A stretch of 57,765 nucleotides of DNA from an uncultured virus (IMG/VR IMGVR_UViG_3300009151_000002). Taxonomy: Duplodnaviria; Heunggongvirae; Uroviricota; Caudoviricetes. The notes beneath the pieces are model-generated. The model searched no databases. It was not told where the DNA came from and saw only the letters and a program-made list of their open reading frames with translations. Positions 6,764-56,894 of the stretch are shown here, in pieces. The stretch lies in IMG/VR virus record IMGVR_UViG_3300009151_000002; one strand, 5' to 3'. Position 1 is the first letter of the stretch. Each line of letters starts with the position of its first letter. Both the position numbers and the translations under genes were made by a program.

Positions 6764-9700
6764 TATCTTAGAGAAATTTCATTTTTACTATTATCAATTT
6801 TTAAAACAATATTTGTATTACCAGATATATTTTTCTTGAAGTTAATAAAACTCATGTAATGTCTGAATTTTTTTCTTTGTAATTCTGGCTTAGCATAGTT
6901 AAGATTATTTTGATTTAATACTCTTCTAAAACCATCTGGTTCTGTAATCCATGTATTTAAATTGCTATAATTACCTAACAATGTTGTAGTTCCAGATACA
7001 TATGGTCCTTGTCCAGCAGGGTAAGCTGTACCAATTGGAAACTCACCTCTATCTTTTGTAATATCCCAGAACTGATTAAATCTATATTTGTTTTCTTCTT
7101 TTGAAAATAAAATATCAAATGAAGTTAAGGTAACTGGATTCAATCTTGGGAATTGTCTTGTAAGAGCAAGATCATTCTTAGGATATATATTAAGATTTAA
7201 GTAACCCGATACTTGTTCTGAGTTATATACAACAGCCGTATCAAAGTTATAATCTAGTACATGATAAGAATCTACACAGTTATCTGTTTTTCTATATGCT
7301 TCCATTATGTATTCAACAGATCTTGTAGTAGTAACTGATTGACCAGTTGTAATTGGAACATCAATCTCACATGCATAATCAATACCATAATAATTACAAT
7401 ACTTATCACAGATCCAGTTATGTCTCCAACCACCGGTACCTTTTGTAGATATAAATACATCTTTAGTAGGCATGAATAGATCTGGATGCCAGTCATGGAA
7501 ACTAATCCAGAACTGATTTTTAGGGTCATAACTTATAGTCCATGATGCATCTCTAAATAAGATTGGATCACCAAGTTTGAATTTAGCTGTAGTATTACCA
7601 TTAATCATAAAGTAATCACCTGTGCTATCACCTTTAAGTGGAATGTATGTTACTTTTCCTTTGTACTTATCTTTAAGTTCATAATCTTTCTTACAGAAGT
7701 ATAAAATAGTATTTGTATTATCAAACACTGCTTGACATCCAATACCTGCTACTGGATTATCTTGATAAGGATACAATGGGAAGTCTTGTGTTAATTTGTA
7801 CGGTAAGAACACAGTGAACCACCATTTCATTCCTTGCTGAGAAATCTCTTGAAGTCCTTCTCCAATTGAGAATACTTTACCTGCAGCTTGAGACATGTAG
7901 TATATACCTACTGGTGTAGATATTACAGACAATCTATTTTGTGATGCTCCATATTCATATGGTTTATCCGCATTAGATAACTGCTGTGGTGCTTGACTAA
8001 ATAAACCTCCATCACCTAAAGTAACTTTAGTTCCTAAATCAGTTTGTAAAGTATCCACACCCTGATACATTATAGGGCTATCATTTTTAAATGTGATTAC
8101 TAAACCAGATTTATTTATTGACTTAACACCACTTACATGAGACTTAAATGCTTTGTAATTATTTACTAAATAAACAAACCAGCTATCTTTTATTGCTTCA
8201 TCTTGTTGAGGTAATGAGTAAATAATTCTATTTGGATAATATGTATAACATAAGTCAGCTACATTAGGATTATAGTATCTACTTTGCACACTACCTAATG
8301 AGAAATATTGATTATATAACTTAGATACACTTAATGAATAATCATATTGATTAAAACTATTTACTCCAAGTATAAGAGGATTAGTATCAAACATTGCATT
8401 ATAATCTGTAAAGTTATACGGATTGTAATACTTTCTTGCAATCTCTTCAGGTTGTGTTCTAAAATCAACTAATACTTCTGACTCAACAAAAAAGTCTCTT
8501 ATTGAAGATACAGATATATAAAAATAAGAATCTTTACAAGTAAAGAATCCTGGATAGTTTCCTGCTTTATCATTATTGTAATTATATTTTTTAGAATCTT
8601 TAACATAATCTAAATTATAAAAATCAGTTGGTAATATACCTTCACCAGGTGGAAAATTACTAACACCTGTAATAATACTAATTATACTATTTATAACAGT
8701 AGGTAAGTTAGCTACATTAAGTACATTAAATGCTTGTGCAAAATCTTGTGCATCATAAAATCTACTATTTAATCTAAACCTTGGATTAGGAATCATACTT
8801 CTCAAGTAATAATTATATTCAAAACCGTTAGGTTGATTATATAACCAATCAAAGAAGAAACACATACTATCTTTTTCAGTATATCTATTAATGTAAGTAT
8901 CACCACCAAACATTAGAGTAGTTCTAAAAATTGTATTTTTTATTATGTTAACAGAATCACAAACTATAGTTGATGGATTAATATTATAATCAGAAAGCTT
9001 TTGCTCACATGTTCCAACCGGTAATTGTTTGATAGAATCTAATTGACCATATTGGTTTCTTACTCTACCTCTTATAGCACCATAGTGACTTTGAATAGGT
9101 AATGAAAAAGTTCTATCAATATTACCTTCAAAATCTGGTAAACTTGTTCCAATAGGAAGTAAAGAAGTAGGGTTTGTTTGTATTAATGTACCTAATGTAG
9201 TTAATGATTTATCACCAGATAATAGTTTAGGACCTATGTTTTGATTATTACCGGCTTTAGTTCTTACAATTACTTTAGGTGATCTTTTTATATTATTAAT
9301 ATTATAAGATCTCCATGTACCATTATTGTCTTGATATCTAGATACAGATTGTATATTATCTCTTAGATAAAAACCATCTTCCATTTTAAATCTTGTAGTA
9401 TCAGTATTTAAGTTTTTTTCAATGTTAGCATAAAAACCGTATGCTTTTTGTTGTAATGCATATTGTTTGTATGCTGTTAAAACATAAATAAGATCTAAAG
9501 TTACTCTCATTCCTTCTGAGAAATAATAAGCAAATCTACCTGTATTATTTACCCCTTTTAAACTTGTAGGTAAATATCTTGAATCATTCCATTCAGAATG
9601 TATTTCTTGAGCTGTATATATACCACCTAGTACATCTTTAGCACTTTTGGCAGCATCTTCATATGTATCTTCATAATTACCACCACCAGCTCCAATATTT

Positions 9701-12318
9701 GCTATAATAGATGGAAGAGTACTTTGAGCATTTAATGTACCAAATGTACCAATGAAACTATTTAATTTTGTATCAAAATCACCAGGTTTACTTACTTGAA
9801 TACCTTCTTGTTCTGTTGTAATTTTACCACTTTCACCATAAAAATCACCACCATTTAAGGGTTTAAAAGTTACACTTCCTGTAAATGTATCACCAGATCC
9901 TGCTGCTAAGACACCCGGTTCAAGAAAATTTCCAAAACTAGTTACAAAACCACCAATTTCATGATTTTTTAATTCTTTACCTCTAACATCTGGAACTTCA
10001 AGATCTTGATATGCAGGACCTTTAGATACAGCAGTTCTTTTGCCAACAGATGAAATAATTGCTTCGACAAATCCTGCAAGTAACATTGGTACAATAATAA
10101 CATCTGATAACAATTTAAATTTAGGATGATCTGATGGAGTATTAAAATTTTGTTGACTGTATCCTGATAATTGACCATAAGTTTTAAATTCTGTTGTTGA
10201 TAAAAAAGGTGTAGTCATCATAGTATCCGGTGAGTGAAAACTAAAGATATCATCAGGTACACTTTGAGTATATACAAAATTTGGATCATTACTTATACCG
10301 GCTCTAATAAATGGATCATTATAATTAGCAACATGACCCCCTAGTGCAGCACTAAGAGGTTGTATAGTATTAAATGGATAATTAGGATATAAACCTGTAG
10401 TACTAATATTACCTGAGCCAGGAACCTGATAAGTTCTTAAATTGTTTACCATTCCTTTAGCAACAATTGTTTTGTTACCTTCTCTTGAACCTCTAAGAAT
10501 TTCAAAACCTACAATACCTGGTATATCATTACCATCATTATCTTTTGGTAAAGCAACATTTTCAAAATAAACACCCATTAGTCTAATAAAAAACTGATTA
10601 GTATTATTTTGAGGAGAAGGATTTCTTCTGAAATGTGTTACTGTATCTGCTGTACTTCCAGCTGCATAATCTTCTGGAAATTTATGATGTCTAATGTGTT
10701 TACCACATAAATCAAACTCTTCCGGATTTACAGTTGCATCTTGACCTGTCCAACAGTGTGCAGATGGATTCCATATGTCTGGTCTATTATCAGGATACTT
10801 CTCTGTTGATTCCCAATATCCCATGTCTCCTGTTGCTATAACAGTTCCCCCGTCATCAGTATTAGTACCGACTAGTGAGGATGAATTGTCTATTGTAGCA
10901 GTATTATAAACTTCAAATACTTTATCATCTGAGTATAATGTATTTTGATTACCAATTAAAATAGCATTTTCAATTAAACTTGCTCCGTTAGGAACATTAA
11001 AGTTTCTAGGTGGTCTTCCTGGGATATGATAAGTAGAAGTTTTATCTCCTGTATTATATACCCATCTAATAAAAAATGAATATACTTCATCTCTCATATA
11101 GTTAGTTTTGTTACCACCTTTTATGTAGTAATCTGCAGGGTATTCTACAGAAGCCCACTTAGTTCTAATTAAGTTAGCTAATGGTTGATAATTAAAATCA
11201 AACTTACTTCTTGGTCCAACTCTTAGCAAATAATTATTTACTTCTGCTATCTGATTTGAAGTTTCAAATACTGGAGTTTGTAAAGGAAGTTGTTCTAGAG
11301 GTATTGTTATGTTAGCTCCATTATCAATTTGATCAATACTTACGGTAGATGTATTAGTGGAGTATATACCCATTAACTGCGCTACAGTTTGTTGGTTAAC
11401 ACACTTCACCATTACTAATTGAAACTCATCAAAGTTTACATTATCTGCAGATATGTTTAAAGTAAGTGATCCTTGAAGATCTTGAGGTGAGTAAATAAAC
11501 TGATAATTACTTTGTGCAAAATAATCAGTTACTTTCTGTCCTTTTATAGTATATGCTATAAGAGCAAAATATGTCCCGTTAGCCAGTGTACCCCCTTGTT
11601 GTCCTCTTGTTAAGTTTAAACAAGGTGTAGTCATAAGTCTAGCTAATCTAATATGCTCACAATCTAATTTGTTTGTGTTTTCACATATGTTACAGTCATT
11701 AACAACTTCACATTTTTTTATCCATTGTACATTTGGCCAAAGTATTTTAGTTCCTCCAGGTCCTTGGTAGTAATTTGCATTAGCTCCTATAGATGTTATG
11801 TAGGAATAATCTGGTCCAGGCCATGTATGTGGATCTCCAACATTTAAATATCTATCTGGATTTAAACCATCACCCCAATATACTTGCCATGTACAATCTT
11901 CTTTCAATCTTGATACACCAGATATTAAATATCTTTTATCAAAATTTAAACAAGCATCAATTACAATAGGTTTATAATTACATTGTTCTTCTTCAAATAA
12001 ACCAATTTCAGAACTTACAGGCTGACCATTTGTATTATGACCCGCTGTAAATATTATCCACTTATCTGAAAAAAGATATACAGTCCCTATTACTAATTTT
12101 TCTACAGCAATACTAGGCATAAATGCACCAGCATTAAAACAAATATAATTAGCAGCTTCATTAGATATTGAACCTACTTTACCTGTCTTAGAGTTATTCA
12201 CCATGTTGACAGCATGTGTCCACATACCGTCTGTAACATATGAAGAATCTGAATCTTTATTAAGCCCCTTTATAAAACTATCCGTTATAGTCTGGGAAGT
12301 ATCTTGCATATCTGCCAT
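6763..12318 (-). CDS. Tail stabilisation/muzzle protein (crAss-like Tstab, beta-propeller)
   Basis: 1851 aa. N-terminus SFIKGLNKDSD...AVN, YWGDGLNP.RY, YMRDEVYSFFIRW and C-terminal WISFHDW are typical of crAss-like stabilisation proteins; synteny after IHF and ring genes. Confidence 0.8.
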   Translation of the reverse strand: MADMQDTSQTITDSFIKGLNKDSDSSYVTDGMWTHAVNMVNNSKTGKVGSISNEAANYICFNAGAFMPSIAVEKLVIGTVYLFSDKWIIFTAGHNTNGQPVSSEIGLFEEEQCNYKPIVIDACLNFDKRYLISGVSRLKEDCTWQVYWGDGLNPDRYLNVGDPHTWPGPDYSYITSIGANANYYQGPGGTKILWPNVQWIKKCEVVNDCNICENTNKLDCEHIRLARLMTTPCLNLTRGQQGGTLANGTYFALIAYTIKGQKVTDYFAQSNYQFIYSPQDLQGSLTLNISADNVNFDEFQLVMVKCVNQQTVAQLMGIYSTNTSTVSIDQIDNGANITIPLEQLPLQTPVFETSNQIAEVNNYLLRVGPRSKFDFNYQPLANLIRTKWASVEYPADYYIKGGNKTNYMRDEVYSFFIRWVYNTGDKTSTYHIPGRPPRNFNVPNGASLIENAILIGNQNTLYSDDKVFEVYNTATIDNSSSLVGTNTDDGGTVIATGDMGYWESTEKYPDNRPDIWNPSAHCWTGQDATVNPEEFDLCGKHIRHHKFPEDYAAGSTADTVTHFRRNPSPQNNTNQFFIRLMGVYFENVALPKDNDGNDIPGIVGFEILRGSREGNKTIVAKGMVNNLRTYQVPGSGNISTTGLYPNYPFNTIQPLSAALGGHVANYNDPFIRAGISNDPNFVYTQSVPDDIFSFHSPDTMMTTPFLSTTEFKTYGQLSGYSQQNFNTPSDHPKFKLLSDVIIVPMLLAGFVEAIISSVGKRTAVSKGPAYQDLEVPDVRGKELKNHEIGGFVTSFGNFLEPGVLAAGSGDTFTGSVTFKPLNGGDFYGESGKITTEQEGIQVSKPGDFDTKLNSFIGTFGTLNAQSTLPSIIANIGAGGGNYEDTYEDAAKSAKDVLGGIYTAQEIHSEWNDSRYLPTSLKGVNNTGRFAYYFSEGMRVTLDLIYVLTAYKQYALQQKAYGFYANIEKNLNTDTTRFKMEDGFYLRDNIQSVSRYQDNNGTWRSYNINNIKRSPKVIVRTKAGNNQNIGPKLLSGDKSLTTLGTLIQTNPTSLLPIGTSLPDFEGNIDRTFSLPIQSHYGAIRGRVRNQYGQLDSIKQLPVGTCEQKLSDYNINPSTIVCDSVNIIKNTIFRTTLMFGGDTYINRYTEKDSMCFFFDWLYNQPNGFEYNYYLRSMIPNPRFRLNSRFYDAQDFAQAFNVLNVANLPTVINSIISIITGVSNFPPGEGILPTDFYNLDYVKDSKKYNYNNDKAGNYPGFFTCKDSYFYISVSSIRDFFVESEVLVDFRTQPEEIARKYYNPYNFTDYNAMFDTNPLILGVNSFNQYDYSLSVSKLYNQYFSLGSVQSRYYNPNVADLCYTYYPNRIIYSLPQQDEAIKDSWFVYLVNNYKAFKSHVSGVKSINKSGLVITFKNDSPIMYQGVDTLQTDLGTKVTLGDGGLFSQAPQQLSNADKPYEYGASQNRLSVISTPVGIYYMSQAAGKVFSIGEGLQEISQQGMKWWFTVFLPYKLTQDFPLYPYQDNPVAGIGCQAVFDNTNTILYFCKKDYELKDKYKGKVTYIPLKGDSTGDYFMINGNTTAKFKLGDPILFRDASWTISYDPKNQFWISFHDWHPDLFMPTKDVFISTKGTGGWRHNWICDKYCNYYGIDYACEIDVPITTGQSVTTTRSVEYIMEAYRKTDNCVDSYHVLDYNFDTAVVYNSEQVSGYLNLNIYPKNDLALTRQFPRLNPVTLTSFDILFSKEENKYRFNQFWDITKDRGEFPIGTAYPAGQGPYVSGTTTLLGNYSNLNTWITEPDGFRRVLNQNNLNYAKPELQRKKFRHYMSFINFKKNISGNTNIVLKIDNSKNEISLR

Positions 12319-12319
12319 C

Positions 12320-13372
12320 TTAGATTACTTTAGTATTATAATTTAACCTAGCATAATTACCAAATGTTGGAGCTTTAAACATGTCATAGTATTTAGAATA
12401 CTGAGCTCTTCTATTAGTCCACCATAGTTGCTCCATCTCTCTGAAGTTTGGAGTGTTAACTAAACTAAGAGCATTATTTCTAGCATCTTTTAGTTCAGGT
12501 AAAATGATTTGTAATCTTTGAGCTACATCCTCTCCATTCAAATATAAGTTTTCAAGAATTCTTTTCTTGAATGCATATTCATAGTAATCATTAAGTCTTG
12601 GATGATCAGGAACCATTAAGTTTCCATTCTCATCTTGTAGTTCTCCTTGGTAATTTACATAAACATGACCATCTTGGAAAGTAGTAAAAAGAAAACCATC
12701 TTTAAGCCAACCTTCATCTGGACCATTATAATACAAGTTAGGACATTCACATTCTATGTTCTGACTTGGTTTCATTCTTAACTGAACAAGTGTATTATAT
12801 TTTCTTGTAAGTCCTGAGTGAACTACTTGGATTAATTCATATGACTCTCCTTTACAATTCATAAATACTCTTGGAGCTACACATGTATCTCCATAAGGAT
12901 TCTCTGGATCATAAGTTGGTGTTGTATTTGTGATAGGTGTATTAAGTCCACAAGCAGCTGTGTGGTTGCATGGATTAGAATTACAGGTTCTACAGTTAAC
13001 TGTTGCTACAGCACAACTATCTACACCACCAGGAAATTCTTGATATTTTACAGTTCCTAATGGAACCTCTTGTATATTAGTTCCACCAACTCTTCCATCA
13101 AAACCAACATGCTCTGTTCTTTCATGGCAGGACATACCAAAATTCCATACATAGAAGTCGTCTGGGAGCTTAACTCTTCCATGACAGATATCTAGTACCA
13201 CTTCTTTAGTTTGATTGATTCTAAGACCTAAATCATAATTGATCTTTCTAGCAAGTTTAATTAATTGCTGTGGCTCAATCATGTTCTCTAAAGCAAAGCT
13301 TGGTAAATCAATCTGAACATCTTCCATCAATTGGTCAAATGTTCTGTATTTGAGTGTATAATTAAAGTCCAT
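12320..13372 (-). CDS. Tail ring/tubular protein (crAss-like Ttub)
   Basis: 350 aa. VKLPDDF and GHVYVNYQG...DENGNLMVPD motifs; located immediately before the muzzle gene. Confidence 0.65.
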   Translation of the reverse strand: MDFNYTLKYRTFDQLMEDVQIDLPSFALENMIEPQQLIKLARKINYDLGLRINQTKEVVLDICHGRVKLPDDFYVWNFGMSCHERTEHVGFDGRVGGTNIQEVPLGTVKYQEFPGGVDSCAVATVNCRTCNSNPCNHTAACGLNTPITNTTPTYDPENPYGDTCVAPRVFMNCKGESYELIQVVHSGLTRKYNTLVQLRMKPSQNIECECPNLYYNGPDEGWLKDGFLFTTFQDGHVYVNYQGELQDENGNLMVPDHPRLNDYYEYAFKKRILENLYLNGEDVAQRLQIILPELKDARNNALSLVNTPNFREMEQLWWTNRRAQYSKYYDMFKAPTFGNYARLNYNTKVI

Positions 13373-14043
13373 TATCTTAAAATATTTTGACCGTCATCAG
13401 TACCGTCAACTGGTATTTGAGCAATCATGGTTAATTCTTTTAGTGCATACTGTTCTATTTCTGAAAATAAATAATCAGGAAATGGAAATGGTTGATCTTG
13501 TTTAAGTTTACATTGATCTTCTGGATCACATTGATAAGCTGTGATATCACCATCAAATATAGCTTCTATTCTTATGGCCTCCCAATCAACATTAGGTAGA
13601 TACAAATAGCCATTTAAAAACCAAAAATATTTTCTTGTGTTATATTTAAAAGTAGTTGATCTTGTTATAGAAACCCAAGTACCAGGATTTGTTCTAAACA
13701 TAATATCACTACCATCTATTGAAGATACAGTACGTATAATAGGACCTAGTACACCATTTAATATAGAAGGAATTTTTTCTTTAGTCCTTTTAAAGTAGCA
13801 TCCTGAATATACTCCTGTACATCCAGCTTCAATCTTATCTACATCTATAAGTTCTACAAAAGGTAATACAGAAAATATAGAACTTATTTTCATAAGTCTA
13901 TACTGGTTGTCTTCTCTTTTAAGTAATGTTTGACCATACTTTAAAAGAGATAAATAAATCACTCTATCAGTTAAGAATGGATCTTCTTTTACTGCTTTAA
14001 GAGTGTTTCTCATTCTTGATATTGCTTCACCAACTGTTGTCAT
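13372..14043 (-). CDS. Tail ring/neck structural protein
   Basis: 223 aa. KYFWFLNGYLY...IRIEAIF...DQPFPFP pattern resembles crAss-like ring proteins; synteny. Confidence 0.6.
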   Translation of the reverse strand: MTTVGEAISRMRNTLKAVKEDPFLTDRVIYLSLLKYGQTLLKREDNQYRLMKISSIFSVLPFVELIDVDKIEAGCTGVYSGCYFKRTKEKIPSILNGVLGPIIRTVSSIDGSDIMFRTNPGTWVSITRSTTFKYNTRKYFWFLNGYLYLPNVDWEAIRIEAIFDGDITAYQCDPEDQCKLKQDQPFPFPDYLFSEIEQYALKELTMIAQIPVDGTDDGQNILR

Positions 14044-14621
14044 AATTCAAATTCATTATATGTTTTAAGAGCATTTTGGGTAAGTGCCGCTTCCTTTCCC
14101 GCATAGTATACTTGTTGATATAGTTTTTTGATTTTTTTATTATTCTCTACTACTCTGTACATATTCCAATTTTCAGGATATGATTTAGCAACAAGTCTTT
14201 TAAAATCTCTACATGCAACAAAAGTCCAATACTCTCTATTTTTCATTTTATGTTTTAGTGCATTGCTTGTAAAGAATATCTTTGCTAACTTTCCATCCGT
14301 AGCAAAATTATTATTATTCACTTCTACACCATACTGTCTAGATTTAGAAAAATCAACATTTCTTTTCTTACTTTGTTGACATGTTCCTACAAAAAGCCAT
14401 CCAATTTGATCAGGTAGTTGAACACCATCTCTACTATCAACAACCATATTATACACTGTTCTATTAAATGTCTTTGTTATATTCTTTAACATGCTGTTTT
14501 CATACTTAGCATATCTAGGATACTTTTTTTTAAATCCATCAAAGAACTCTTTGTCTAAAAGATTAGATACTTCAGGTCTATATCTCGGTGCTGATAAATC
14601 AGGTGTCTTAAACTCTCTCAT
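14040..14621 (-). CDS. IHF/HU-like protein of crAss-like tail module
   Basis: Basic 193 aa with helix then GVQLPDQIGWLFV and ...FVACRDFKRLV, an IHF-like pattern; conserved position before ring and muzzle genes. Confidence 0.6.
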   Translation of the reverse strand: MREFKTPDLSAPRYRPEVSNLLDKEFFDGFKKKYPRYAKYENSMLKNITKTFNRTVYNMVVDSRDGVQLPDQIGWLFVGTCQQSKKRNVDFSKSRQYGVEVNNNNFATDGKLAKIFFTSNALKHKMKNREYWTFVACRDFKRLVAKSYPENWNMYRVVENNKKIKKLYQQVYYAGKEAALTQNALKTYNEFEL

Positions 14622-14623
14622 AA

Positions 14624-14658
14624 TAATATAGTAAAAATTAGTTATATTAGCAAATATA
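14624..14658 (-). promoter_or_regulatory. Putative promoter (TATATTTG at 14651-14658; CTATATTA at 14624-14631)
   Basis: Bacteroidota -7 box TAnnTTTG plus a late-type box, directly after a terminator. Confidence 0.45.
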
Positions 14659-14662
14659 GCTA

Positions 14663-14691
14663 TAAAACAAAACCCCTACAAGTGCAGGGGT
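14663..14691 (-). terminator. Rho-independent terminator
   Basis: Minus strand ACCCCTGCA-CT-TGTAGGGGT followed by TTTGTTTTA. Confidence 0.8.
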
Positions 14692-14738
14692 CTGTCCGTA
14701 GTTGTAAGAATAAACCAACAAACTTCAACTAACTAATA
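14663..14738 (-). ncRNA. Candidate 3'-UTR-derived small RNA: hairpin with UUUGUUGGUUU loop plus terminator
   Basis: UAGUUG/CAACUA stem (14699-14731) encloses a loop complementary to the AAACCAACAA leader motif found before four start codons. Confidence 0.4.
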
Positions 14739-15383
14739 TCAAGGAATATTAAATGGTGTTAAAGGATGATTACCTGTAGCAGTCATAATTTTTTTAAGTT
14801 GTTGCATCATTAATCCCAGTACTGTTCTAAATTCTAAATAATGACTATACTCAGGAGTTTGATAATTTGTAAAATCTATAGTGTATGTATATGGTTGATC
14901 TGGTACATTTGGTCCTACTGGAATATTTATTGTGATTGTTTCCACACCTGTTTTTTTATTAGGGTCTCCCAAAGGCAATAATGAATTTTGCATCTGCTCT
15001 CTTTTAGATCTAAAATTTATAGATTTTATAATAAAACCATCAGGTTGTCCATAATATAAATCACACATTGCAGTTAAATTACTTAAAGAATTACATTTTT
15101 CATTAAGTAAACCTTCAGGTATAATTATATCTCCTGTAATAGGATCTTGATAACCAGGATCATAATAAAAAGCATATGAAGATAAAAAGTATTCATTAAC
15201 AGCATTTAACCAAGCATCATATGTTGCTCTTGCTGTTGTAAATAAATCTATTGTATCAGGAAAACCTGTATTTTCAGTACAAGTATTACCTATTGCACCA
15301 TTAAGACAATAATCTTCCAAATCAACATTACAAACTCTAGGTATGTAATTATTCCAAATTTCTATGTTCTTTATAAAACTCAT
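14739..15383 (-). CDS. Hypothetical protein (tail/fibre module)
   Basis: 214 aa ORF, tightly coupled to the upstream gene. Confidence 0.6.
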   Translation of the reverse strand: MSFIKNIEIWNNYIPRVCNVDLEDYCLNGAIGNTCTENTGFPDTIDLFTTARATYDAWLNAVNEYFLSSYAFYYDPGYQDPITGDIIIPEGLLNEKCNSLSNLTAMCDLYYGQPDGFIIKSINFRSKREQMQNSLLPLGDPNKKTGVETITINIPVGPNVPDQPYTYTIDFTNYQTPEYSHYLEFRTVLGLMMQQLKKIMTATGNHPLTPFNIP

Positions 15384-15385
15384 AA

Positions 15386-16750
15386 TTAAACTGGATATTT
15401 TAATTCATATTTAAATCTATGAAACATTACGTAATCATTAGCCCAAATAAAAGGTGCATTTGCTAATGTAAGTGCATTAAATGATGCTAACCAAGCATTT
15501 CTTCTTGATCTGTTTATTTGACCTATGCTAACTATTATATTACCTAATGTTACACTCCACATATTTGTAACAGGATCCCATGCATATTCACCAAATAAAG
15601 TTGGATCTAATGGATCAGTTGCCCATTTTACTAATTGACCGGGCTGTCCAGTGGGAGGTGTATTTCCAAAAGGTACAGCATCTATCCAATAAAATTTTGT
15701 ACAATCTTCAGGATCTAACATTGAGAATCTTTCAGCTAATGTTTGATTAGATAATTCAGGCCAAGAAATTTCATTCCATACTCTAAATGTACATTCCGGA
15801 CATCCCCATAAAATATTATAATTCATGAGACCTCCTTTATAAAATATTAATTGATCACCTAAATTACCTGGTTCCCATTGTGTGTAATCTAATATTTCAG
15901 GTGTTATAACATTTTGTGTACCTACATTTTCACTTAATGAATTTTCATTAAGATTTTTTAAATATTCATCTCTATTAGCTCTATACTCACTTGCAGCATC
16001 TTCATATGATGGATAACCTTCAATACAACAAATATTTTTTAATTCCGTACATGTAGGCATGTAATCTGGATCATCCATAAAATCCATTGGAGTTAAAGCA
16101 AATGGAGTTTCATATCCATTGTTGTTAAATATCCTACCTCCTAAAAATGCTTGTCTTAATTGAGGTGGATCAACTATTATAGAATAACAGTCTGATGCAT
16201 AAAGAAAATGAACTGTTTCTTTACATCCTCTTGAATCTTTAACTGTAAGTTGAATATTACTTACTTTAATATTTTTATCTATGTTACCTGTTATAATTGC
16301 ATTACCTGCAATACAAGTTAAATTCAAAGTAGGTAATGTTGTTGAGCCAGAAACAAAATGACCAACAAAATCTCCTTGAGCAATTTCCCATTTATATGTA
16401 TAAGGTGCTTGACCATTTGTTACACTAGCAGTTAATGTTGGAGTATCCTCATCATCTGGATTTGGAACAATATTAACTTCTAGAGCACATCTTGGAGGTG
16501 TTTGACAAATAATATCAAGTATGCTTTGTAAAGCTGATTCTAAATTTTCAAACTTATTAATTACTACAAAGGTGGTTCCACAATATAATATATTGTTATT
16601 TGTGTATTGTATACATGCTGAATCAAGTATCTCAGAACATGCATATGATTCTGGACAAGTTCCTGGATCAGGACAAATTGTATATGATTTAGGTATGTAG
16701 TTTAAAATTACTTTTTTATTGCTACCACCACAGTTTCTACAAATAGGCAT
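15386..16750 (-). CDS. Cys-rich structural protein with Ig/SprB-like domain
   Basis: 454 aa. N-terminal C-x-E-x(2)-DSAC-x-x-YT module shared with neighbours; TASVTNGQAPYTYKW Ig-like repeat. Confidence 0.5.
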   Translation of the reverse strand: MPICRNCGGSNKKVILNYIPKSYTICPDPGTCPESYACSEILDSACIQYTNNNILYCGTTFVVINKFENLESALQSILDIICQTPPRCALEVNIVPNPDDEDTPTLTASVTNGQAPYTYKWEIAQGDFVGHFVSGSTTLPTLNLTCIAGNAIITGNIDKNIKVSNIQLTVKDSRGCKETVHFLYASDCYSIIVDPPQLRQAFLGGRIFNNNGYETPFALTPMDFMDDPDYMPTCTELKNICCIEGYPSYEDAASEYRANRDEYLKNLNENSLSENVGTQNVITPEILDYTQWEPGNLGDQLIFYKGGLMNYNILWGCPECTFRVWNEISWPELSNQTLAERFSMLDPEDCTKFYWIDAVPFGNTPPTGQPGQLVKWATDPLDPTLFGEYAWDPVTNMWSVTLGNIIVSIGQINRSRRNAWLASFNALTLANAPFIWANDYVMFHRFKYELKYPV

Positions 16751-16752
16751 AA

Positions 16753-17301
16753 TTAAACTAAATTAGCAAATGTATAATATCTTGTTGCTTTATTTAAAGC
16801 ACCATCAGTTACATCTAATCTTATATGAGACATATTAACAGCACCAGTTGCACCACTTATTCCACCTACCTGAAATGTATTACCTACTATAGGTGAAAGA
16901 ATAACAGATGAAAAATTAGCACCACCGGTTATTGTATGACCAATAAATGTTCCTTGTGCTATAGACCATAAAAATTGATAAGGTGCAGTACCACCAGATA
17001 CACTTGCAGCTAACCCACCTTCATTATCAGTAATTTCAACTACTAGAGTTCCACTTGTAATTTCACAAACTTTGTCAACTATATTTTGTAATGCTTGATC
17101 TATAGTTGTATTAGTTGCAACAACAGTATCTTCACCACAGTCTAAATTTAAACCTGTGTATACAACACATGCTGAATCAAATGTCTCTTCACACTTCTGT
17201 GGTGTAGGGCATTCAGCTGGATCCGAGCATGGTGCTACAGGTAAGAAAGTATCTTTACATCCACAATCTTTACATCCACAATTTGTACAATTAGTTTCCA
17301 T
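16753..17301 (-). CDS. Cys-rich structural protein, paralogue of the N-terminal part of 15386-16750
   Basis: 182 aa. CEETFDSACVVYTG and ASVSGGTAPYQFLWSIAQGTFIGH align with the downstream gene. Confidence 0.5.
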   Translation of the reverse strand: METNCTNCGCKDCGCKDTFLPVAPCSDPAECPTPQKCEETFDSACVVYTGLNLDCGEDTVVATNTTIDQALQNIVDKVCEITSGTLVVEITDNEGGLAASVSGGTAPYQFLWSIAQGTFIGHTITGGANFSSVILSPIVGNTFQVGGISGATGAVNMSHIRLDVTDGALNKATRYYTFANLV

Positions 17302-17312
17302 GGTTTAATATT

Positions 17313-19235
17313 TTATAAGTTTATTGTTGGAAGTAAATCTTCAGATAATTTTACAATTTGCAATGATATTCCATCACTACCATTTAAATGATTTGCAGTA
17401 TAGGTTCTACCTGTAATATTTAAAACATTTATACCAAGTTGTGTATTTGCGAATAGATATACAGTTCTTGTTGTTGTAAGATCAATTTGTGTTGTTTTAT
17501 TTGCAATTACAGGTTGAAAGTTACCACAAAAAATATCTGTAGTATTACCTGCATTAACAATACCTAATCCAATATTACCATCTACTGTGTCCCAAAAATA
17601 TTGACCTTCTAATGGAGCACTACTTGCATTACAGTTAGTTTTTAAATGCATGTGTGCTGATATTGTATAAACACCAGCTTGAGTAATTGTAAATATTCCT
17701 GAATCAGAATCTAGTATACCAAATGTATTACCATAATTTTGAAAGTCTGTAGTAGTTAAATATGTAGCCACACCATAATGTGTAACAGTTACATTTTTAT
17801 TTGCATAAGCACCAACAGATCCAGTTGTTTGAATAAAGTTAGGTTTTAACATTCTTTGTCCGCCACCAGTTACAGGTATACTATAACCAGTATTGGTACT
17901 AGGTGTATAACATGAATTAGCTACCGAACCTTGCGTTACAGGTAGTATATCTGTCCAACTACAATATTTGTCACTTCTCATACTCCATCCCATAACAAAT
18001 GAATCTAAACCATACTTACTATATACTTCATATGTTGTATCATTAGTTGTAGGATTTGTTGATGCAGTTACAGAAACTGTATTAGTTGTATCTAAAGATG
18101 CTTGAACAATTGCTTCCTTACTATTAACAGTGTAAATTGTATTTACCGGATCTAATGTATTTACATCAACAGTAACATTAGTTCCTGCAGCAACAGTAGT
18201 TCCTCTTGCATTTACTGTATACTCAGTATTGAGATCTACTACATTTGTAGTAACACTAGCAATATTTGTACCACCAGCAACTGAAGAACTTTTAGCTTTG
18301 ATAGCAAATGAAACTTCTGGTCCACATGTTCCAGGAGTTGTTGTAGTAGTAACTATTACATTAGAGTTACCTGCAGTTACATTATATCTTTTATATGCAT
18401 CTCTAATATCTTGAACAGTTAACCACAAATCAATAAAGCTTTCACTTAAATTAGTTGGTGTTGTGATCCATGTAGTAGAGAATAATTGATCTAATGTTAA
18501 AGCACAGTTAGATAAAGCACCATCTGTACCTGATACAGTTTGTGAATTAAAAGCTACTGTTATATCTGATGGTTGACCTGTTGTTCCAAGTAACGCACAG
18601 TATCCATGATTATCATCATTAATAAGTGCTCTAAGAATTATATTTAGAGGGTATGATACTCCGGCAACAACACTACCATTTGCTAATGTACAATCTGGTA
18701 TAACAGAAGGAAGTACGTATGGAGGTGTAGGTGGAATAGATTCTAATGCTATTACTCTATTTGTTATATTGGTAATAGAATTATTTATTGTAGTAATATC
18801 ATCTATAATAGAACAGATAGTATTACCAATCATTTGTACATAGTCTAACAGCTTCATTGTAGTTTGAGTACCTGTTTGTAAACAAGCAGGTACGGGTACA
18901 ATACAATCTGTAGGACATGAACTATTTCCTCCACGGGTCGGAAAAGCACTAGGTGCTGGTATACTATTTGTTTCACAAATCTTATTAATTAAAATTTGTA
19001 GTAATTGATTAATGTTAGTAGGTTTACCTGTTGTAATTTTTAAACAAGTTAAATCAAGTGTAGAAATATTTACAGCATCTACAATGTCACATAGCTGCAT
19101 AGCTAATGCATATACTACATCTGTAATAGTATCTCCTGTACATAATTTTATACATGGAATATTTGGACCTTGCCAAATAACACAGTTACTTGATATAGGA
19201 CTACAAGGGCTGTTATCTAAATTAAGTGGTTTCAT
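17313..19235 (-). CDS. Putative tail fibre/spike with Cys-rich N-terminus and C1q/TNF-like C-terminal domain
   Basis: 640 aa. Short coiled coil, Thr/Val-rich repeats, and GIFTITQAGVYTISA, a C1q/BclA-like motif. Confidence 0.5.
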   Translation of the reverse strand: MKPLNLDNSPCSPISSNCVIWQGPNIPCIKLCTGDTITDVVYALAMQLCDIVDAVNISTLDLTCLKITTGKPTNINQLLQILINKICETNSIPAPSAFPTRGGNSSCPTDCIVPVPACLQTGTQTTMKLLDYVQMIGNTICSIIDDITTINNSITNITNRVIALESIPPTPPYVLPSVIPDCTLANGSVVAGVSYPLNIILRALINDDNHGYCALLGTTGQPSDITVAFNSQTVSGTDGALSNCALTLDQLFSTTWITTPTNLSESFIDLWLTVQDIRDAYKRYNVTAGNSNVIVTTTTTPGTCGPEVSFAIKAKSSSVAGGTNIASVTTNVVDLNTEYTVNARGTTVAAGTNVTVDVNTLDPVNTIYTVNSKEAIVQASLDTTNTVSVTASTNPTTNDTTYEVYSKYGLDSFVMGWSMRSDKYCSWTDILPVTQGSVANSCYTPSTNTGYSIPVTGGGQRMLKPNFIQTTGSVGAYANKNVTVTHYGVATYLTTTDFQNYGNTFGILDSDSGIFTITQAGVYTISAHMHLKTNCNASSAPLEGQYFWDTVDGNIGLGIVNAGNTTDIFCGNFQPVIANKTTQIDLTTTRTVYLFANTQLGINVLNITGRTYTANHLNGSDGISLQIVKLSEDLLPTINL

Positions 19236-19253
19236 ATCTTTTACTTCTTATTT

Positions 19254-19261
19254 TAATATAC
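19254..19261 (-). promoter_or_regulatory. Putative late promoter box (GTATATTA)
   Basis: TTTTGTATATTA upstream of ATG 19235. Confidence 0.5.
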
Positions 19262-19267
19262 AAAATA

Positions 19268-20833
19268 TTATTGACTTATACAATTTCCACAGCCGCATTC
19301 TGCAGGTGCGCAGCAAGACAATGCTTGAGTGCAATTAAAGTCAGGATCATTTAAAGCCTGTAAATCAATGACTTCTTTATTAACTATTAATCTTTCATCA
19401 TCATCAGGACAACAGTTACTTATACCATATCTTTGTTGTAAAACTTGTCTGTATAATACTTCAGCAGTTTCACAAGTTATTTTTTCAAATCTCTCAGGAT
19501 CACAATTCGGAGTTGTATAACCTGGTCTCATCATTCTACCAGTAATATCTACAGGACATATTTTATTTAAAATATTATTAGGATCCTCAACACAATCACC
19601 ATATTCAGTTACTATATCTGTGTTAAGATGAATAAGTATCCATTGATTAACACAACGCTTAGTACTAGTTGCACCTGGAGCTAATGTAAAAGTTTGTTCT
19701 ACTTCTAAACAATCCTTATAAGTATAAGTTAATGTTTCACTTGTTGTATTTTTAACTTTTGTACAAGTACATTCTACAACTGCCAAACATGTTGGACAAT
19801 CCTCATATTGTTGAGTAACGGATACTCCTACAGCATTTTCATAATCTGGAGTAGGTGAAGTTTGTACTGACCAACAACTTGGGTAACCGGCTAACTTTAA
19901 TATGTCAGACCCATATGAAGTCATATCAGTAAATGTTGTAATTGGTGCTAACTCACCTCCACAATCATAGAGTATAAAATATGCTCTTGAACATTGCTCA
20001 CATGAATCATATGCATTTTCAACAACAAAAGTTTGTGTATTAGGAGGTCTAAAATCTATTTGTTCTACAAACCAACAATCTCCACAATCTAAAGAAACTA
20101 TTTTTCCAACATACTCAGATAAATCTTCTTCAGAATATTTTACTAATGATAAGTTTTCACAATTAGTAAGAGTATAAGCTACAATTGGTAAACATGTTTC
20201 ACAAGAACTATATATAAGATTTATACTTACATCTTCAAAACATTCACATTCAACTCCTAAGTCTATAGTCCAGCAACCATCAAGTTCATTTAAAGTAATT
20301 GTGCTACCATTTGCATAAGCTGCAAATAAACTTTGATTATTAGAATGAATAATTTGACCTGTTGCACAATTAGTTAATTCATAACATGAAATATTACAAC
20401 CACCAACTATTTCACAACCTTCACTAATAACATTAATTAGTGGGTTTTGTATTGAAACATATGGTTTTGTTTTAGTACATATATTAGCTGGCAAAGATGT
20501 AGTAGTCTCAACATCATTATAGTTAATATATCTTACAGTACCAATTCCACCACCTATAGTAATACAAGAAGCTATACATGGATCACAACTTGCACCATCA
20601 TATGTAAGGCCATTATTTATAACTGCAAATGTAGGAGGTGTTCCTGAAAATAATTTTACAGTAAAACAACCTAAATTTTCAAGAAAAATATTATCATATA
20701 CTTCAATTGTAGTATTCAAATATGCATTGAATAAAATTGCTTGTGTAAAAATTACAGGTTGGTTTGAATCATAGCAAGGATATAAAATATACCATTGATT
20801 TCCTCTCACAGATGTAAAACTTTCTTGTGCCAT
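19268..20833 (-). CDS. Cys-rich repeat structural protein
   Basis: 521 aa. Four ~70-aa repeats Y-x-L-x-x-C...C-[WF]-x-[VI]...CxxC. Confidence 0.55.
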   Translation of the reverse strand: MAQESFTSVRGNQWYILYPCYDSNQPVIFTQAILFNAYLNTTIEVYDNIFLENLGCFTVKLFSGTPPTFAVINNGLTYDGASCDPCIASCITIGGGIGTVRYINYNDVETTTSLPANICTKTKPYVSIQNPLINVISEGCEIVGGCNISCYELTNCATGQIIHSNNQSLFAAYANGSTITLNELDGCWTIDLGVECECFEDVSINLIYSSCETCLPIVAYTLTNCENLSLVKYSEEDLSEYVGKIVSLDCGDCWFVEQIDFRPPNTQTFVVENAYDSCEQCSRAYFILYDCGGELAPITTFTDMTSYGSDILKLAGYPSCWSVQTSPTPDYENAVGVSVTQQYEDCPTCLAVVECTCTKVKNTTSETLTYTYKDCLEVEQTFTLAPGATSTKRCVNQWILIHLNTDIVTEYGDCVEDPNNILNKICPVDITGRMMRPGYTTPNCDPERFEKITCETAEVLYRQVLQQRYGISNCCPDDDERLIVNKEVIDLQALNDPDFNCTQALSCCAPAECGCGNCISQ

Positions 20834-20840
20834 GTTTTAT

Positions 20841-21035
20841 TTATTTATTTGCTGTGTATCTATCAGCACCCCAAACATTTTTGTTTACTGTTGGTGCTGT
20901 AGGAACTATTTGTTTTTTATCTTGTAATCCTTTTTCATAAAAGGCTAAACAACTTGAACAACAAGATGTTCCATTACTTGCTCTTCTCTTTTGACATCCG
21001 CAAGACATTTTTGCATTACAATTACTACAATTCAT
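20841..21035 (-). CDS. Small Cys-rich (metallothionein/Zn-finger-like) protein
   Basis: Start moved to ATG 21035 because it is preceded by the AAACCAACAAAA leader and avoids overlap: MNCSNCNAKMSCGCQ...SCCSSC. Confidence 0.55.
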   Translation of the reverse strand: MNCSNCNAKMSCGCQKRRASNGTSCCSSCLAFYEKGLQDKKQIVPTAPTVNKNVWGADRYTANK

Positions 21036-21054
21036 TTTTGTTGGTTTTAAAGGT

Positions 21055-21624
21055 TTAACAATTATTACATTCAAATTTATTCAAAAGTTTTAATGCATAG
21101 TTATATAAACTCATTCCTTTTTGTGGTTCATGACAAAATTCTACTTTTGACTTAGCAGATTCTAAATACATTTTTATTAATCTAAGTCTTTCTAGTTTTG
21201 TTTTTATCTTAGCTGGAGGATCACAGGCAGCTAAATCAACATTACATAAAACTTTATAATATTTATTTAAGGCTTGAGAAATTCTCAAATAATTATATTC
21301 TACAAATAGTAAATTGTTTGGTGAAACACTGTATCTAATTGCATAAATACCATCTGGTATATTTGCTAGTATAGTATCACAATTTTCTTTTTGTAATCCA
21401 AGATCACATGCTGTTAAATTGATATGCCCACCCTCAACAAAATTTATCATCTTGTCACCAATAATTTCAGTTGAGTAACCAAAACCAGGAACTGTAATTG
21501 TTAGTGTAGGACATATAATAGGAATATTAGGTGATGTAGTTTGATACACACTAGTATCAAAAATTTTCATCACACAGGTATTTAATACCGTAGGTATATC
21601 TAAACTTAATATATGATTTGCCAT
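21055..21624 (-). CDS. Putative tail hub/structural protein
   Basis: 189 aa. IFDTSVY...LTITVPGF...IPDGIYAIRYSVSP pattern seen in crAss-like structural modules. Confidence 0.5.
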   Translation of the reverse strand: MANHILSLDIPTVLNTCVMKIFDTSVYQTTSPNIPIICPTLTITVPGFGYSTEIIGDKMINFVEGGHINLTACDLGLQKENCDTILANIPDGIYAIRYSVSPNNLLFVEYNYLRISQALNKYYKVLCNVDLAACDPPAKIKTKLERLRLIKMYLESAKSKVEFCHEPQKGMSLYNYALKLLNKFECNNC

Positions 21625-21635
21625 AGTTCCTTAAA

Positions 21636-21678
21636 ATAAAAAAAGGAGAGAAGAGTTTGAAACTCTCACTCTCCTTTT
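21636..21678 (-). terminator. Rho-independent terminator
   Basis: AAAAGGAGAG...CTCTCCTTTT long stem followed by a T-run on the minus strand. Confidence 0.8.
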
Positions 21679-21700
21679 AAAGTTATTATTTTTTTTCCTA

Positions 21701-31892: not shown

Positions 31893-31925
31893 TGTTTTGT
31901 TGGTTTTTGTTTTTGTAAAATTAAT

Positions 31926-34890: not shown

Positions 34891-34913
34891 CTTGTTGGTT
34901 TTAGTTTATAATT

Positions 34914-43092: not shown

Positions 43093-43398
43093 TTATGATC
43101 TTTTAAGTTTTCTTTCTGCTGTAGGAGAAGTTTGTTCCGCAGTTTCTTTTTCCTCTTTCTTTTCTTCAGGTTCACGGTCACTAGTATCTTGCTCTTGCTG
43201 AGCTGCCATAATATTAGCCCACTGGATTTGAATAGTTGCTCTTCTAAATCTTGCTTCCTCAATTTCAGTTAAGAACTTTTCATACTTACTTTGTGATTCT
43301 AAATAAGGTAATGAATCATCATAGAATGCTTTCATTTCTTCTTTTCTTGCAGCTAACTCCTCTTGAGTTAATTCTTGCTCTTCATGTTGGTTTGACAT
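43093..43398 (-). CDS. Hypothetical coiled-coil protein
   Basis: 101 aa, Glu/Gln-rich. Confidence 0.6.
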   Translation of the reverse strand: MSNQHEEQELTQEELAARKEEMKAFYDDSLPYLESQSKYEKFLTEIEEARFRRATIQIQWANIMAAQQEQDTSDREPEEKKEEKETAEQTSPTAERKLKRS

Positions 43399-56855: not shown

Positions 56856-56894
56856 ACTTAGTTTGTTGGTTTCACAAATATATGAATTATTTTA

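What the first reader, a model, noticed from the sequence alone, without database searches (positions are those of the whole stretch)
14663..14738. 3'-UTR hairpin displays the antisense of a leader motif found upstream of several start codons
Seen: on the minus-strand transcript, UAGUUGAAG-UUUGUUGGUUUAUU-CUUACAACUA forms a hairpin just before a terminator. Its loop is complementary to AAACCAACAA(A), which lies 1-5 nt upstream of the ATGs at 21035 (21037-21047), 31892 (31896-31906), 34890 (34892-34901, scaffold) and 56855 (56860-56872, a 13-nt match). A 9-nt version lies just inside the start of 43093-43398. Inference: a phage trans-acting sRNA or 3'-UTR element that pairs with translation-initiation regions to coordinate a regulon, acting as a repressor or as a substitute for SD pairing in a host lacking SD.
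Basis: partly seen in the sequence, partly recalled or inferred. Interest (0 to 1): 0.8.

Follow-up and report, generated by a model that had tools for sequence, protein, structure and literature searches.

The report
Conserved phage anti-leader RNA hairpin
A large group of uncultured crAss-like phages keeps a small RNA hairpin behind its tail-fibre genes whose unchanging loop mirrors a short tag placed just before the start codons of a few virion genes, so it is probably an undescribed phage RNA that controls their translation by base pairing.

Summary
The hairpin (14699-14731, minus strand) lies between a stop codon and an intrinsic terminator. Its loop is the exact complement of AAACCAACAA. 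All four sense-strand copies of that 10-mer in the window lie 1-7 nt before ATGs.

Hairpin plus terminator occurs in all 79 loci of one relative set and all 49 of a more distant set. The stem covaries, while the loop core GUUGGUU is unchanged in all but one fragment.

Across eight genomes AAACCAAC is the most enriched of all 8-mers in the 35 nt before start codons (40 of 87 copies, 1.39 expected). It stands almost always in sense, before the same orthologous genes: the two genes flanking the capsid gene and a small zinc-ribbon gene.

No Rfam family matches, and six literature searches found no description.

Best reading (about 0.6): a 3'-end RNA element that pairs with these initiation regions, most likely blocking ribosome binding. 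It would act in trans, and possibly in cis on its own operon.

Not shown here are the transcript itself, the pairing, or its effect. Loop-flank variants are not compensated in the leaders. A role as a Shine-Dalgarno substitute has no support.

The parts
14699..14731 (-). RNA hairpin: 5' arm 14731-14723, 14-nt loop 14722-14709 (core GUUGGUUU, complement of AAACCAAC), 3' arm 14708-14699
   Evidence: Sequence. Fold. Covariance-model hit at window 14690-14741, 48.6 bits. Stem covariation in relatives.
14660..14693 (-). Intrinsic terminator (stem 14693-14670, then U-run) directly after the hairpin
   Evidence: the only terminator-like site in 14000-22000. RNAalifold finds the stem with compensatory changes. 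The U-run is on the minus strand only.
14622..14658 (-). Promoter-like region of the downstream tail operon: TATATTTG (14658-14651), TTGCTA-N17-TATATT (14653-14625), with the ATG at 14621 only 3 nt after TATATT
   Evidence: Sequence. One search lists TTGCTA/TATATT. TATATTTG is enriched before genes (rank 16). An RNA contig of run X1 ends at 14622, which is a weak hint only.
14739..15383 (-). 214-aa gene whose 3' UTR holds the hairpin. Its C-terminal part differs among relatives. It is the last gene of the tail-fibre-like block.
   Evidence: SprB-repeat hits in the two genes upstream of it (below the Pfam cut-off).
21037..21047 (-). Leader box AAACCAACAAA, 1 nt before the ATG of the 64-aa Cys-rich (zinc-ribbon-like) gene 20841-21035. 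This is the first box-bearing gene upstream of the hairpin on the same strand.
   Evidence: No terminator-like site between it and the hairpin.
31896..31906 (-). Leader box AAACCAACAAA before the 338-aa gene 30876-31892 (immediately after the capsid gene and its terminator)
   Evidence: The box is present in 78 of 80 orthologous leaders and 8 of 8 genomes.
34892..34901 (-). Leader box AAACCAACAA, 1 nt before the ATG of the 423-aa gene 33619-34890 (between portal and capsid genes)
   Evidence: 8 of 8 genomes.
56860..56872 (-). Leader box AAACCAACAAACU (13-nt match to the loop and the top of the stem), 2 nt after a TATATTTG box and 4 nt before the ATG of the 75-aa gene 56628-56855
   Evidence: Strongest predicted duplex, -16.3 kcal/mol. 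Kept in G005.
43385..43393 (-). 9-nt copy AAACCAACA inside codons 2-5 of gene 43093-43398 (possible fifth target, or chance)
   Evidence: Similar in-CDS copies at orthologues in G005 and G006.

Best explanation
The hairpin is the business end of a regulatory RNA made as the 3' end of the tail-fibre operon transcript. The unit is hairpin plus terminator, about 70 nt, possibly trimmed to a small RNA.

Its exposed loop (core GUUGGUUU, usually UUUGUUGGUUU) base-pairs with the box AAACCAAC(AAA), which lies 0-15 nt before the AUG of a small, conserved set of virion-module genes. These are the two genes flanking the capsid gene, a small zinc-ribbon gene and a few others.

The box lies inside the ribosome's footprint on mRNAs that have no Shine-Dalgarno sequence and little structure. 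The 8-13 bp duplex would therefore most likely block 30S binding and lower translation of these genes once the tail-fibre operon is transcribed.

The first box-bearing gene (the zinc-ribbon gene) lies upstream on the same strand, with no terminator-like site in between. The same pairing could therefore also act in cis, 5' UTR to 3' UTR of one long mRNA.

Shown here: the structure, its conservation, the complementarity, and the position and strand bias of the box. Inferred: that the RNA accumulates, that the two pair, and that the effect is repression.
For: 1) Structure under selection. The stem covaries: GUUACAG/CUGUGAC, GUCGCAG/CUGUGGC, AGUCUGG/CUGGACU, UCAGAAU/AUUCUGA, GUCUGAAG/CUUCUGAC and others. 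On A2, 87.4% of cells pair and 0 of 500 shuffles reach the covariation score. On the more distant, model-fitted A8, 93.3% pair, 5 of 7 pairs change on both sides, and the score is 0.469 against 0.287 (0 of 500). RNAalifold finds hairpin and terminator on its own, with 12 of 16 pairs showing compensatory changes.

2) Invariant loop. GTTGGTT lies within 200 nt upstream of the 193-aa gene in 78 of 79 loci, and the 79th has it 1.5 kb upstream. In the second set 49 of 49 loci have it: 40 by the model and 9 by motif plus fold. There is one strong model hit per genome in 9 of 9 genomes.

3) The spacer is better kept than the coding DNA beside it: 111 of 121 columns against 451 of 596, window versus G005.

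4) The complement is the top start-site motif. AAACCAAC ranks 1 of 11,360 observed 8-mers for enrichment at -35..-1 in 8 genomes (40 of 87 copies, 1.39 expected). It is first of the 56 A5C3 permutations (25 of 60 copies, median permutation 1 of 24). Orientation at start sites is 47 sense to 1 antisense.

5) A conserved target set. The 338-aa gene leader carries the box in 78 of 80 loci, often in 2-3 tandem copies.

6) Spacing of box to AUG is 0-15 nt, with 24 of 40 copies at 3-6 nt. Box-bearing start regions are no more structured than others (median -1.9 against -2.4 kcal/mol, p = 0.19), so there is nothing for an activator to open.

7) The U-run of the terminator is on the gene strand only, so the hairpin is transcribed in sense.

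8) No Rfam family matches.
Against: - No transcript ends, no discrete small RNA and no pairing were observed. The three metatranscriptome runs are low-depth contigs. One contig (X3) simply bridges hairpin, terminator and promoter.
- No compensatory covariation between loop and leaders. Loop flanks differ in G006 (UUAAGUUGGUUUA), G016 (UUUGGUUGGUUUCC), G017 (UUUAGUUGGUUUA) and G018 (UUAGUUGGUUU). Leaders there still read AAACCAAC followed mostly by A. Support therefore rests on conserved complementarity of an 8-nt core.
- The capsid gene itself lacks the box, so the logic of the target set is unexplained.
- Predicted duplexes are moderate (-11 to -16 kcal/mol), and in some genomes unrelated genes score as well.
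- Gene calls used for the counts are crude: longest ATG ORFs of 50 aa or more.
- The box could have a function of its own, as a translational enhancer, independent of the hairpin.
Confidence: 0.6

Rival explanations
1. The hairpin is a protein-binding site: an operator, antitermination or processing signal next to the terminator, as boxB is for lambda N. Its loop is constant because a phage or host protein reads it. The complementarity to the leader box is coincidence, or both simply reflect separate factors.
For: A covarying stem with an invariant loop is the usual signature of a protein-recognised hairpin. The hairpin always sits 4-15 nt before a terminator. No loop/leader covariation was found.
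Against: The loop core is the exact reverse complement of the single most enriched of all 8-mers before start codons (rank 1 of 11,360). My rough estimate for such a coincidence is under 1 in 1000. No candidate RNA-binding protein turned up among the 63 window ORFs scanned in Pfam, but the window is only part of the genome.
Confidence: 0.12
2. The hairpin only stabilises or marks the 3' end of the operon transcript. The spacer is conserved because it is a terminator-promoter cassette and a recombination boundary next to a mosaic tail-fibre gene. The AAACCAAC box is an independent A/C-rich translational enhancer for a host that ignores Shine-Dalgarno sequences.
For: Conservation starts a few bases before the hairpin, while the gene upstream is swapped among close relatives. 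Leaders are A-rich throughout. Flavobacterium translation depends on upstream A residues and lack of structure (PMC6847099, abstract seen). The box has an SD-like spacing and tandem copies.
Against: A mere stabiliser needs no invariant 8-11 nt loop across stems that were completely replaced. This rival also leaves the exact complementarity unexplained. The capsid gene, presumably the most expressed, lacks the supposed enhancer.
Confidence: 0.1
3. The box is read as double-stranded DNA by a phage regulator or recombinase. The hairpin copy is just one site in the opposite orientation. One version: inverted repeats bracketing the tail-fibre block, as in invertible host-range segments.
For: The zinc-ribbon-gene box and the hairpin copy form an inverted repeat around the tail-fibre-like genes in 10 of 10 genomes where both were seen, 4-15 kb apart.
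Against: Orientation at start sites is 47 sense to 1 antisense, and the distance to the promoter box varies (2-26 nt). Stem covariation points to a single-stranded fold. There are no ORFs on the other strand that an inversion could switch on. No recombinase was found among the window ORFs.
Confidence: 0.04
4. The box pairs with a host RNA (ribosomal RNA, or a tRNA D-loop), and the phage hairpin mimics or competes with that host site.
For: SD-like spacing of the box. GTTGGTT occurs in the D-loop of the tRNA-Ile gene of the rRNA spacer in many Bacteroidota.
Against: No conserved GTTGGTTT or GTTGGTT site was found in 16S or 23S rRNA sense strands of 80 Bacteroidota rRNA loci. Not all of those loci hold a full 23S, and the true host is unknown. 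D-loops are buried in tRNA tertiary structure (general knowledge).
Confidence: 0.03

Closest known systems
c4 antisense RNA of phages P1 and P7 (recalled from my own knowledge; no paper read here)
   Same: A phage-encoded, structured RNA whose exposed loops pair with short complementary sites at the ribosome-binding region of phage genes. It is made from the same transcript as a target.
   Different: c4 controls a single immunity/antirepressor operon, and its loops and targets co-vary between P1 and P7. Here one loop faces boxes at several unlinked virion genes. No covariation was seen, and the host group apparently does not use SD.
3'-UTR-derived base-pairing small RNAs of enterobacteria (CpxQ, SroC, DapZ type; GlnZ/SucA example PMC9731577, search listing and abstract only)
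   Same: A conserved seed just upstream of the mRNA's own intrinsic terminator, with no promoter of its own. Multiple targets are hit at initiation regions.
   Different: Those need Hfq and RNase E, and the seed is usually single-stranded rather than presented in a hairpin loop. This element is phage-borne, and processing is unknown.
icaR mRNA 5'-3' UTR pairing and C-rich loop sRNAs (RNAIII, RsaE) of Staphylococcus aureus
   Same: A motif in a 3' UTR or in hairpin loops is complementary to the shared ribosome-binding motif and blocks initiation. The cis option fits the zinc-ribbon leader and the hairpin lying on one putative transcript.
   Different: In those cases the target is the universal SD sequence. 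Here it is a private box carried by only a few genes.
Trans-acting sRNAs of Bacteroides such as GibS
   Same: Hfq-independent base-pairing regulators in Bacteroidota acting at initiation regions.
   Different: Those are chromosomal, with their own promoters and no relation in sequence. No Rfam family matches this element.

Membership tests
Any Rfam 15 family | Score at or above the family's gathering threshold | tested here: not met
   cmscan of the whole window, both strands: 0 matches.
3'-UTR-derived base-pairing sRNA (functional class) | Lies between a stop codon and the mRNA's own intrinsic terminator, without a conserved promoter of its own | tested here: met
   Stop at 14741-14739, hairpin 14731-14699, terminator 14693-14660. 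Sequences upstream of the hairpin are unrelated among relatives.
3'-UTR-derived base-pairing sRNA (functional class) | Conserved seed complementary to several mRNAs at their initiation regions | tested here: met
   Loop core invariant in 78+1 of 79 and 49 of 49 loci. The complement ranks first before start codons.
3'-UTR-derived base-pairing sRNA (functional class) | A stable processed RNA species accumulates | tested here: inconclusive
   Only low-depth RNA contigs were available. One bridges the element and one ends at 14690. Contigs cannot show ends.
3'-UTR-derived base-pairing sRNA (functional class) | Pairing changes target translation or stability, shown by compensatory mutations | not testable with these tools
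   Needs reporters or infection experiments.
P1/P7 c4-type phage antisense RNA | Loop and target sites co-vary between related phages | tested here: not met
   Loop-flank variants in G006, G016, G017 and G018 are not mirrored in the leaders. The 8-nt core never varies in a record that also holds targets.
Lambda-type nut/boxB antitermination hairpin | Short stem with a GNRA-like pentaloop, downstream of an early promoter, read by an N-like protein | tested here: not met
   The loop is 10-15 nt and U/G-rich. The position is at the end of a late operon. No N-like protein was identified.
Intrinsic (rho-independent) terminator | G+C-rich stem followed by a U-run on the transcribed strand | tested here: met
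   This applies to the second hairpin only. The first hairpin has no U-run after it.
crAss-like phages (Crassvirales-like) | Crassvirus capsid, muzzle and tail-ring protein families in a syntenic virion module | tested here: met
   Pfam Crass_capsid (1.3e-28), crAss_MUZ (3.3e-30), CrAss_Ring_2 (1.2e-19) and CrAss_Ring_1 (1.1e-07). PHROG portal and head hits.

The most novel reading that the evidence does not exclude
The hairpin RNA and the AAACCAAC box form a phage-private start-site code for ribosomes that ignore Shine-Dalgarno sequences. The box sits at SD-like spacing. The hairpin loop is its only perfect complement found. The RNA would act as a trans-supplied 'anti-leader' adaptor that recruits or licenses ribosomes on tagged messages, rather than a simple repressor.
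Probability: 0.06. Interest if true: 0.95.

Novelty: new variant of a known kind. Interest (0 to 1): 0.72.

Why it matters
crAss-like phages are among the most abundant phages known, yet almost nothing is known about their post-transcriptional control, and no regulatory RNA of theirs turned up in my searches. Here a single 8-11 nt loop and its complementary tag are held constant across hundreds of environmental contigs whose proteins have drifted to about 40% identity. That points to a core regulatory circuit of the virion module.

It also bears on an open question: how start sites are chosen and tuned in Bacteroidota-type hosts that do not use Shine-Dalgarno pairing. The box and hairpin give a compact, testable pair. 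It needs only reporters, toeprints and compensatory mutants, with no requirement to culture the phage first.

Tried and rejected
- DNA and protein searches of the phage collection with the region and the 423-aa protein found nothing. The capsid protein finds only distant isolates: Leptolyngbya phage Lbo-JY46 at 28% identity, gut crAss-like phages and Cellulophaga phages at 22-26%. Lbo-JY46 has no AAACCAAC box around its capsid gene, so it gives no cultured model.
- No whole genome is held for the window.
- A scan of bacterial genomes with the 193-aa protein profile found no relative, so there is no host clue.
- rRNA-mimic idea: no conserved complementary site in 80 Bacteroidota rRNA loci.
- Identity of the two main target proteins: no PHROG, Pfam or PDB-sequence match, either singly or as profiles.
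- Metatranscriptomes: three freshwater RNA runs hold parts of the region at depth 3-7 as contigs. They show no ends and no level. Contig ends at 14622 and 14690 are hints only.
- Presence/absence co-occurrence test: impossible, because no record examined lacks the hairpin. Lineages that seemed to lack it carry it 1.4-1.5 kb further upstream, behind an inserted gene.
- Covariation of loop flanks with leaders: looked for in G006, G016, G017 and G018 and not found. G017 has four genes whose leaders carry U after the core, matching its loop's A, but G016 has the same leaders without that loop.
- A pseudoknot between the loop (UUGUUG) and the CAACAA that often follows the 3' arm: rejected on geometry, because there is no linker. 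It remains possible as a competing fold.
- tRNA or tmRNA reading: ARAGORN finds none in the window.

Full report
**What is in the window.**
Nearly all genes run on the minus strand. Pfam identifies a crAss-like virion module:
- Crassvirus capsid protein (31975-33594)
- muzzle protein (6763-12318)
- tail ring proteins 1 and 2 (12320-13372 and 13372-14043)

PHROGs add a portal protein (34981-37710).

The finding lies in the 117-nt spacer between a 214-aa gene (14739-15383) and a 193-aa gene (14040-14621). The 214-aa gene is the last of a block of tail-fibre-like genes. The 193-aa gene heads the ring/muzzle operon.

Read on the minus strand, the spacer holds, in order:
- the TGA stop
- a hairpin (14731-14699: 6 bp, a bulged A, 3 bp, and a 14-nt loop UUUGUUGGUUUAUU)
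- an intrinsic terminator (14693-14660), the only terminator-like site in 14000-22000
- a promoter-like stretch: TATATTTG, then TTGCTA-N17-TATATT
- the ATG at 14621

The hairpin appears in both the MFE and centroid folds (z = -3.56).

**The observation.**
AAACCAACAA occurs six times exactly in the window against 0.36 expected.
- The four minus-strand copies all end 1-7 nt before the ATGs at 21035, 31892, 34890 and 56855.
- A 9-nt copy lies in codons 2-5 of gene 43093-43398.
- Of the two plus-strand copies, one is the loop. The other (20069) lies inside a CDS and has no counterpart in the 56%-identity relative G005, so I treat it as chance.
- Loop-to-start-region duplex energies rank exactly these five genes first among 67 crude gene calls.

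**Relatives.**
The 214-aa protein finds four viral contigs.
- In one relative (83% identity) the spacer is identical to the window's.
- In a 56%-identity relative the upstream gene carries an extra C-terminal domain, yet the spacer is 111 of 121 columns identical. The downstream CDS is 451 of 596.
- The terminator differs there by two changes that keep its stem.
- A pattern made of the two stem arms finds the element in 10 of 19 matched contigs, behind at least four unrelated gene ends. The other 9 matches are unrelated coding sequence.

A profile of the downstream 193-aa protein returned 79 loci at 39-100% identity.
- 78 carry GTTGGTT within 200 nt upstream of the gene, in a hairpin followed by a terminator.
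- The 79th (G011) has hairpin, terminator and promoter 1.5 kb upstream, with a gene inserted in between.

A second scan centred on a distant member gave 49 loci. The covariance model finds the hairpin in 40 of them, and motif plus fold finds it in the other 9. In several lineages it again lies 1.4-1.5 kb upstream, behind an inserted gene.

Each of nine genomes searched whole has exactly one strong model hit.

The profile scans report about 384 relatives of the 193-aa protein and 478 of the 338-aa protein, so the clade is large. It has no cultured member in the phage collection; the nearest capsid hits are at 22-28% identity.

**Structure.**
The stem sequence is replaced many times while pairing is kept.
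- On the MAFFT alignment A2, 87.4% of cells pair, even though the window's subgroup is out of register. No shuffle of 500 reaches the covariation score.
- RNAalifold predicts both hairpin and terminator. 12 of 16 pairs show double changes.
- On the model-fitted alignment of the distant set, 93.3% pair, 5 of 7 pairs change on both sides, and the score is 0.469 against 0.287 in shuffles. That alignment leans towards the structure, but the slid controls fall to 9-53% paired.
- The loop core GUUGGUU does not change in any locus except one 12.5-kb fragment, which reads GUUGGUA.

**The box.**
I counted over eight genomes with crude gene calls (longest ATG ORFs of 50 aa or more).
- AAACCAAC is the most enriched of all 11,360 8-mers seen in the 35 nt before start codons: 40 of its 87 copies against 1.39 expected.
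- It is first among the 56 permutations of its own letters, so A/C-richness alone does not explain it.
- By orientation, 47 copies lie at start sites in sense and 1 in antisense. Another 29 lie inside genes, split evenly between strands. Of 10 in other spacers, 8 are the hairpins.
- The gap from box to AUG is 0-15 nt, and 24 of 40 copies lie at 3-6 nt.
- Distance from the TAnnTTTG promoter box varies from 2 to 26 nt. The box therefore tracks the start codon, not the promoter.

The same genes carry the box across genomes:

| Gene | Genomes with the box |
|---|---|
| 338-aa gene just after the capsid gene | 8 of 8 |
| 406-428-aa gene between portal and capsid | 8 of 8 |
| 53-73-aa Cys-rich gene | 7 of 8 |
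| 123-aa gene | 3 of 8 |

- In 80 orthologous leaders of the 338-aa gene the box is present in 78, often two or three times in tandem.
- The capsid gene itself has no box.

**Link between loop and box.**
The invariant loop core is the exact reverse complement of the top-ranked start-site 8-mer. With four 8-mers in an 11-nt loop and 65,536 possible words, a chance coincidence is of the order of 1e-4. Allowing for composition, I put it under 1e-3 (my estimate, not a tool result).

The box contains only A and C, so wobble pairing cannot help and only GUUGGUUU can pair with it. I found no such conserved site in the sense strand of 80 Bacteroidota rRNA loci. The only recurrent GTTGGTT there is the D-loop of the spacer tRNA-Ile gene.

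**What was not found.**
- No loop/leader covariation. Where the loop's 5' flank differs (G006, G016, G017, G018), the leaders still read AAACCAAC followed mostly by A. The demonstrable pairing is the 8-9 nt core, extended to 10-13 nt in the window's subgroup.
- Two earlier notes of this scan say that loop and tag change together. That claim prompted, and I could not reproduce it in my sample. Those notes otherwise describe the same element in other genomes of this clade and reach the same reading. They are AI notes and not independent evidence.
- No RNA ends. Three freshwater metatranscriptome runs hold parts of the region only as low-depth contigs.

**Mechanism.**
The terminator's U-run is on the gene strand only, and nothing conserved lies upstream of the hairpin that could be its own promoter. 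The hairpin is therefore made as the 3' end of the tail-fibre operon transcript.
- The box lies within the usual 30S footprint.
- The leaders have no SD and are unstructured.
- In Flavobacterium, initiation is tuned by upstream adenines and by lack of structure (PMC6847099, abstract).

A loop-box duplex would therefore most simply occlude the start site. This is inference.

In 10 of 10 genomes where both were seen, the Cys-rich gene with its box lies 4-15 kb upstream of the hairpin on the same strand, with the tail-fibre-like genes between. In the window no terminator-like site intervenes. The pairing could thus also close one long mRNA on itself, as described for icaR (recalled from my own knowledge).

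**Rivals.**
The rivals are a protein-bound hairpin, a plain 3'-end stabiliser plus an independent enhancer box, a DNA-level site, and a host-RNA mimic. I judge each less likely, for the reasons given in their sections.

**Literature.**
The bioRxiv paper on phi14:2 (10.1101/2020.03.07.982082; passages seen by term search) reports host-RNAP middle and late promoters with a tripartite motif and says nothing of such a box or hairpin in those passages.

Six full-text searches found no description of this element. In one search none of the ten papers listed contained 'Crassvirales' at all.

Names of comparable systems (c4, RNAIII/RsaE, CpxQ-type, icaR, GibS) are recalled or taken from notes, and were not tested here.

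**Verdict.**
This is a real, deeply conserved, undescribed structured RNA element with a specific complementary start-site box. The regulatory reading is well motivated but unproven.

Noticed in passing
window 14622-14640, and upstream of 53112-54674, 50508-50873, 48800-50197, 44511-44810, 21701-23287, 17313-19235: A recurrent TTTT-n-GTATATTA(t/a) box lies before many genes. It probably corresponds to the -10-like block of the crAss-like middle/late promoter motif. At the 193-aa gene the ATG follows TATATT by 3 nt, so that mRNA may be leaderless or nearly so. An RNA contig of run X1 ends at 14622.
   Followed up: partly
window 43399-43440 and other leaders; 8 genomes: A second family of enriched start-site words (TAAACTAA, AACTTAAA, AACTAAAA, ACTTAAAA), for example tttaaacttaaaaagtataaaat before ATG 43398. 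It may mark another co-regulated gene set.
   Followed up: no
window 14739-15383; L003/L004/L007, L035-L046: The gene before the hairpin has interchangeable C-terminal parts among close relatives, including a 270-aa extension in G005. Sequence conservation resumes a few bases before the hairpin. This is a mosaic boundary next to a host-range-type gene.
   Followed up: partly
G011 87714-89240; L460, L474, L490 and kin, about 1.4-1.5 kb upstream of the 193-aa gene: Several lineages carry an extra gene between the hairpin-terminator-promoter unit and the 193-aa gene. It is about 400 aa in G011. Others carry a gene ending ...DYWHYHNKF...-like.
   Followed up: no
hairpin 3' flank, e.g. L064-L111 (alignment A2): The 3' arm is usually followed at once by CAACAA, which is complementary to the loop's UUGUUG. 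This could be a competing fold or an internal target mimic. It is absent in the most distant members.
   Followed up: partly
G008 about 119290-119330 (minus strand): A separate hairpin in which AACCAACAATC pairs with GATTGTTGGT, so that box and anti-box lie in one stem.
   Followed up: no
window 28519-29466, 25011-25361, 55648-55983: Unusual cargo genes: an LCIB/C-type beta-carbonic-anhydrase-like protein (9e-27), a SET-domain protein (2e-13), and a weak sub-threshold hit to the Acb2/Tad1 hairpin domain (8e-4).
   Followed up: no
G006 about 16170-16215: What looks like the 3' end of a tRNA gene (GGTTCGATCCTGG...) directly precedes the box of the 338-aa gene. ARAGORN was not run on it.
   Followed up: no
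G023 98200-99542 (minus strand): Three consecutive small genes share the leader taacACCAACgagaaATG, a variant box (CACCAACGAGAA) not matched by that genome's hairpin loop beyond CCAAC.
   Followed up: no
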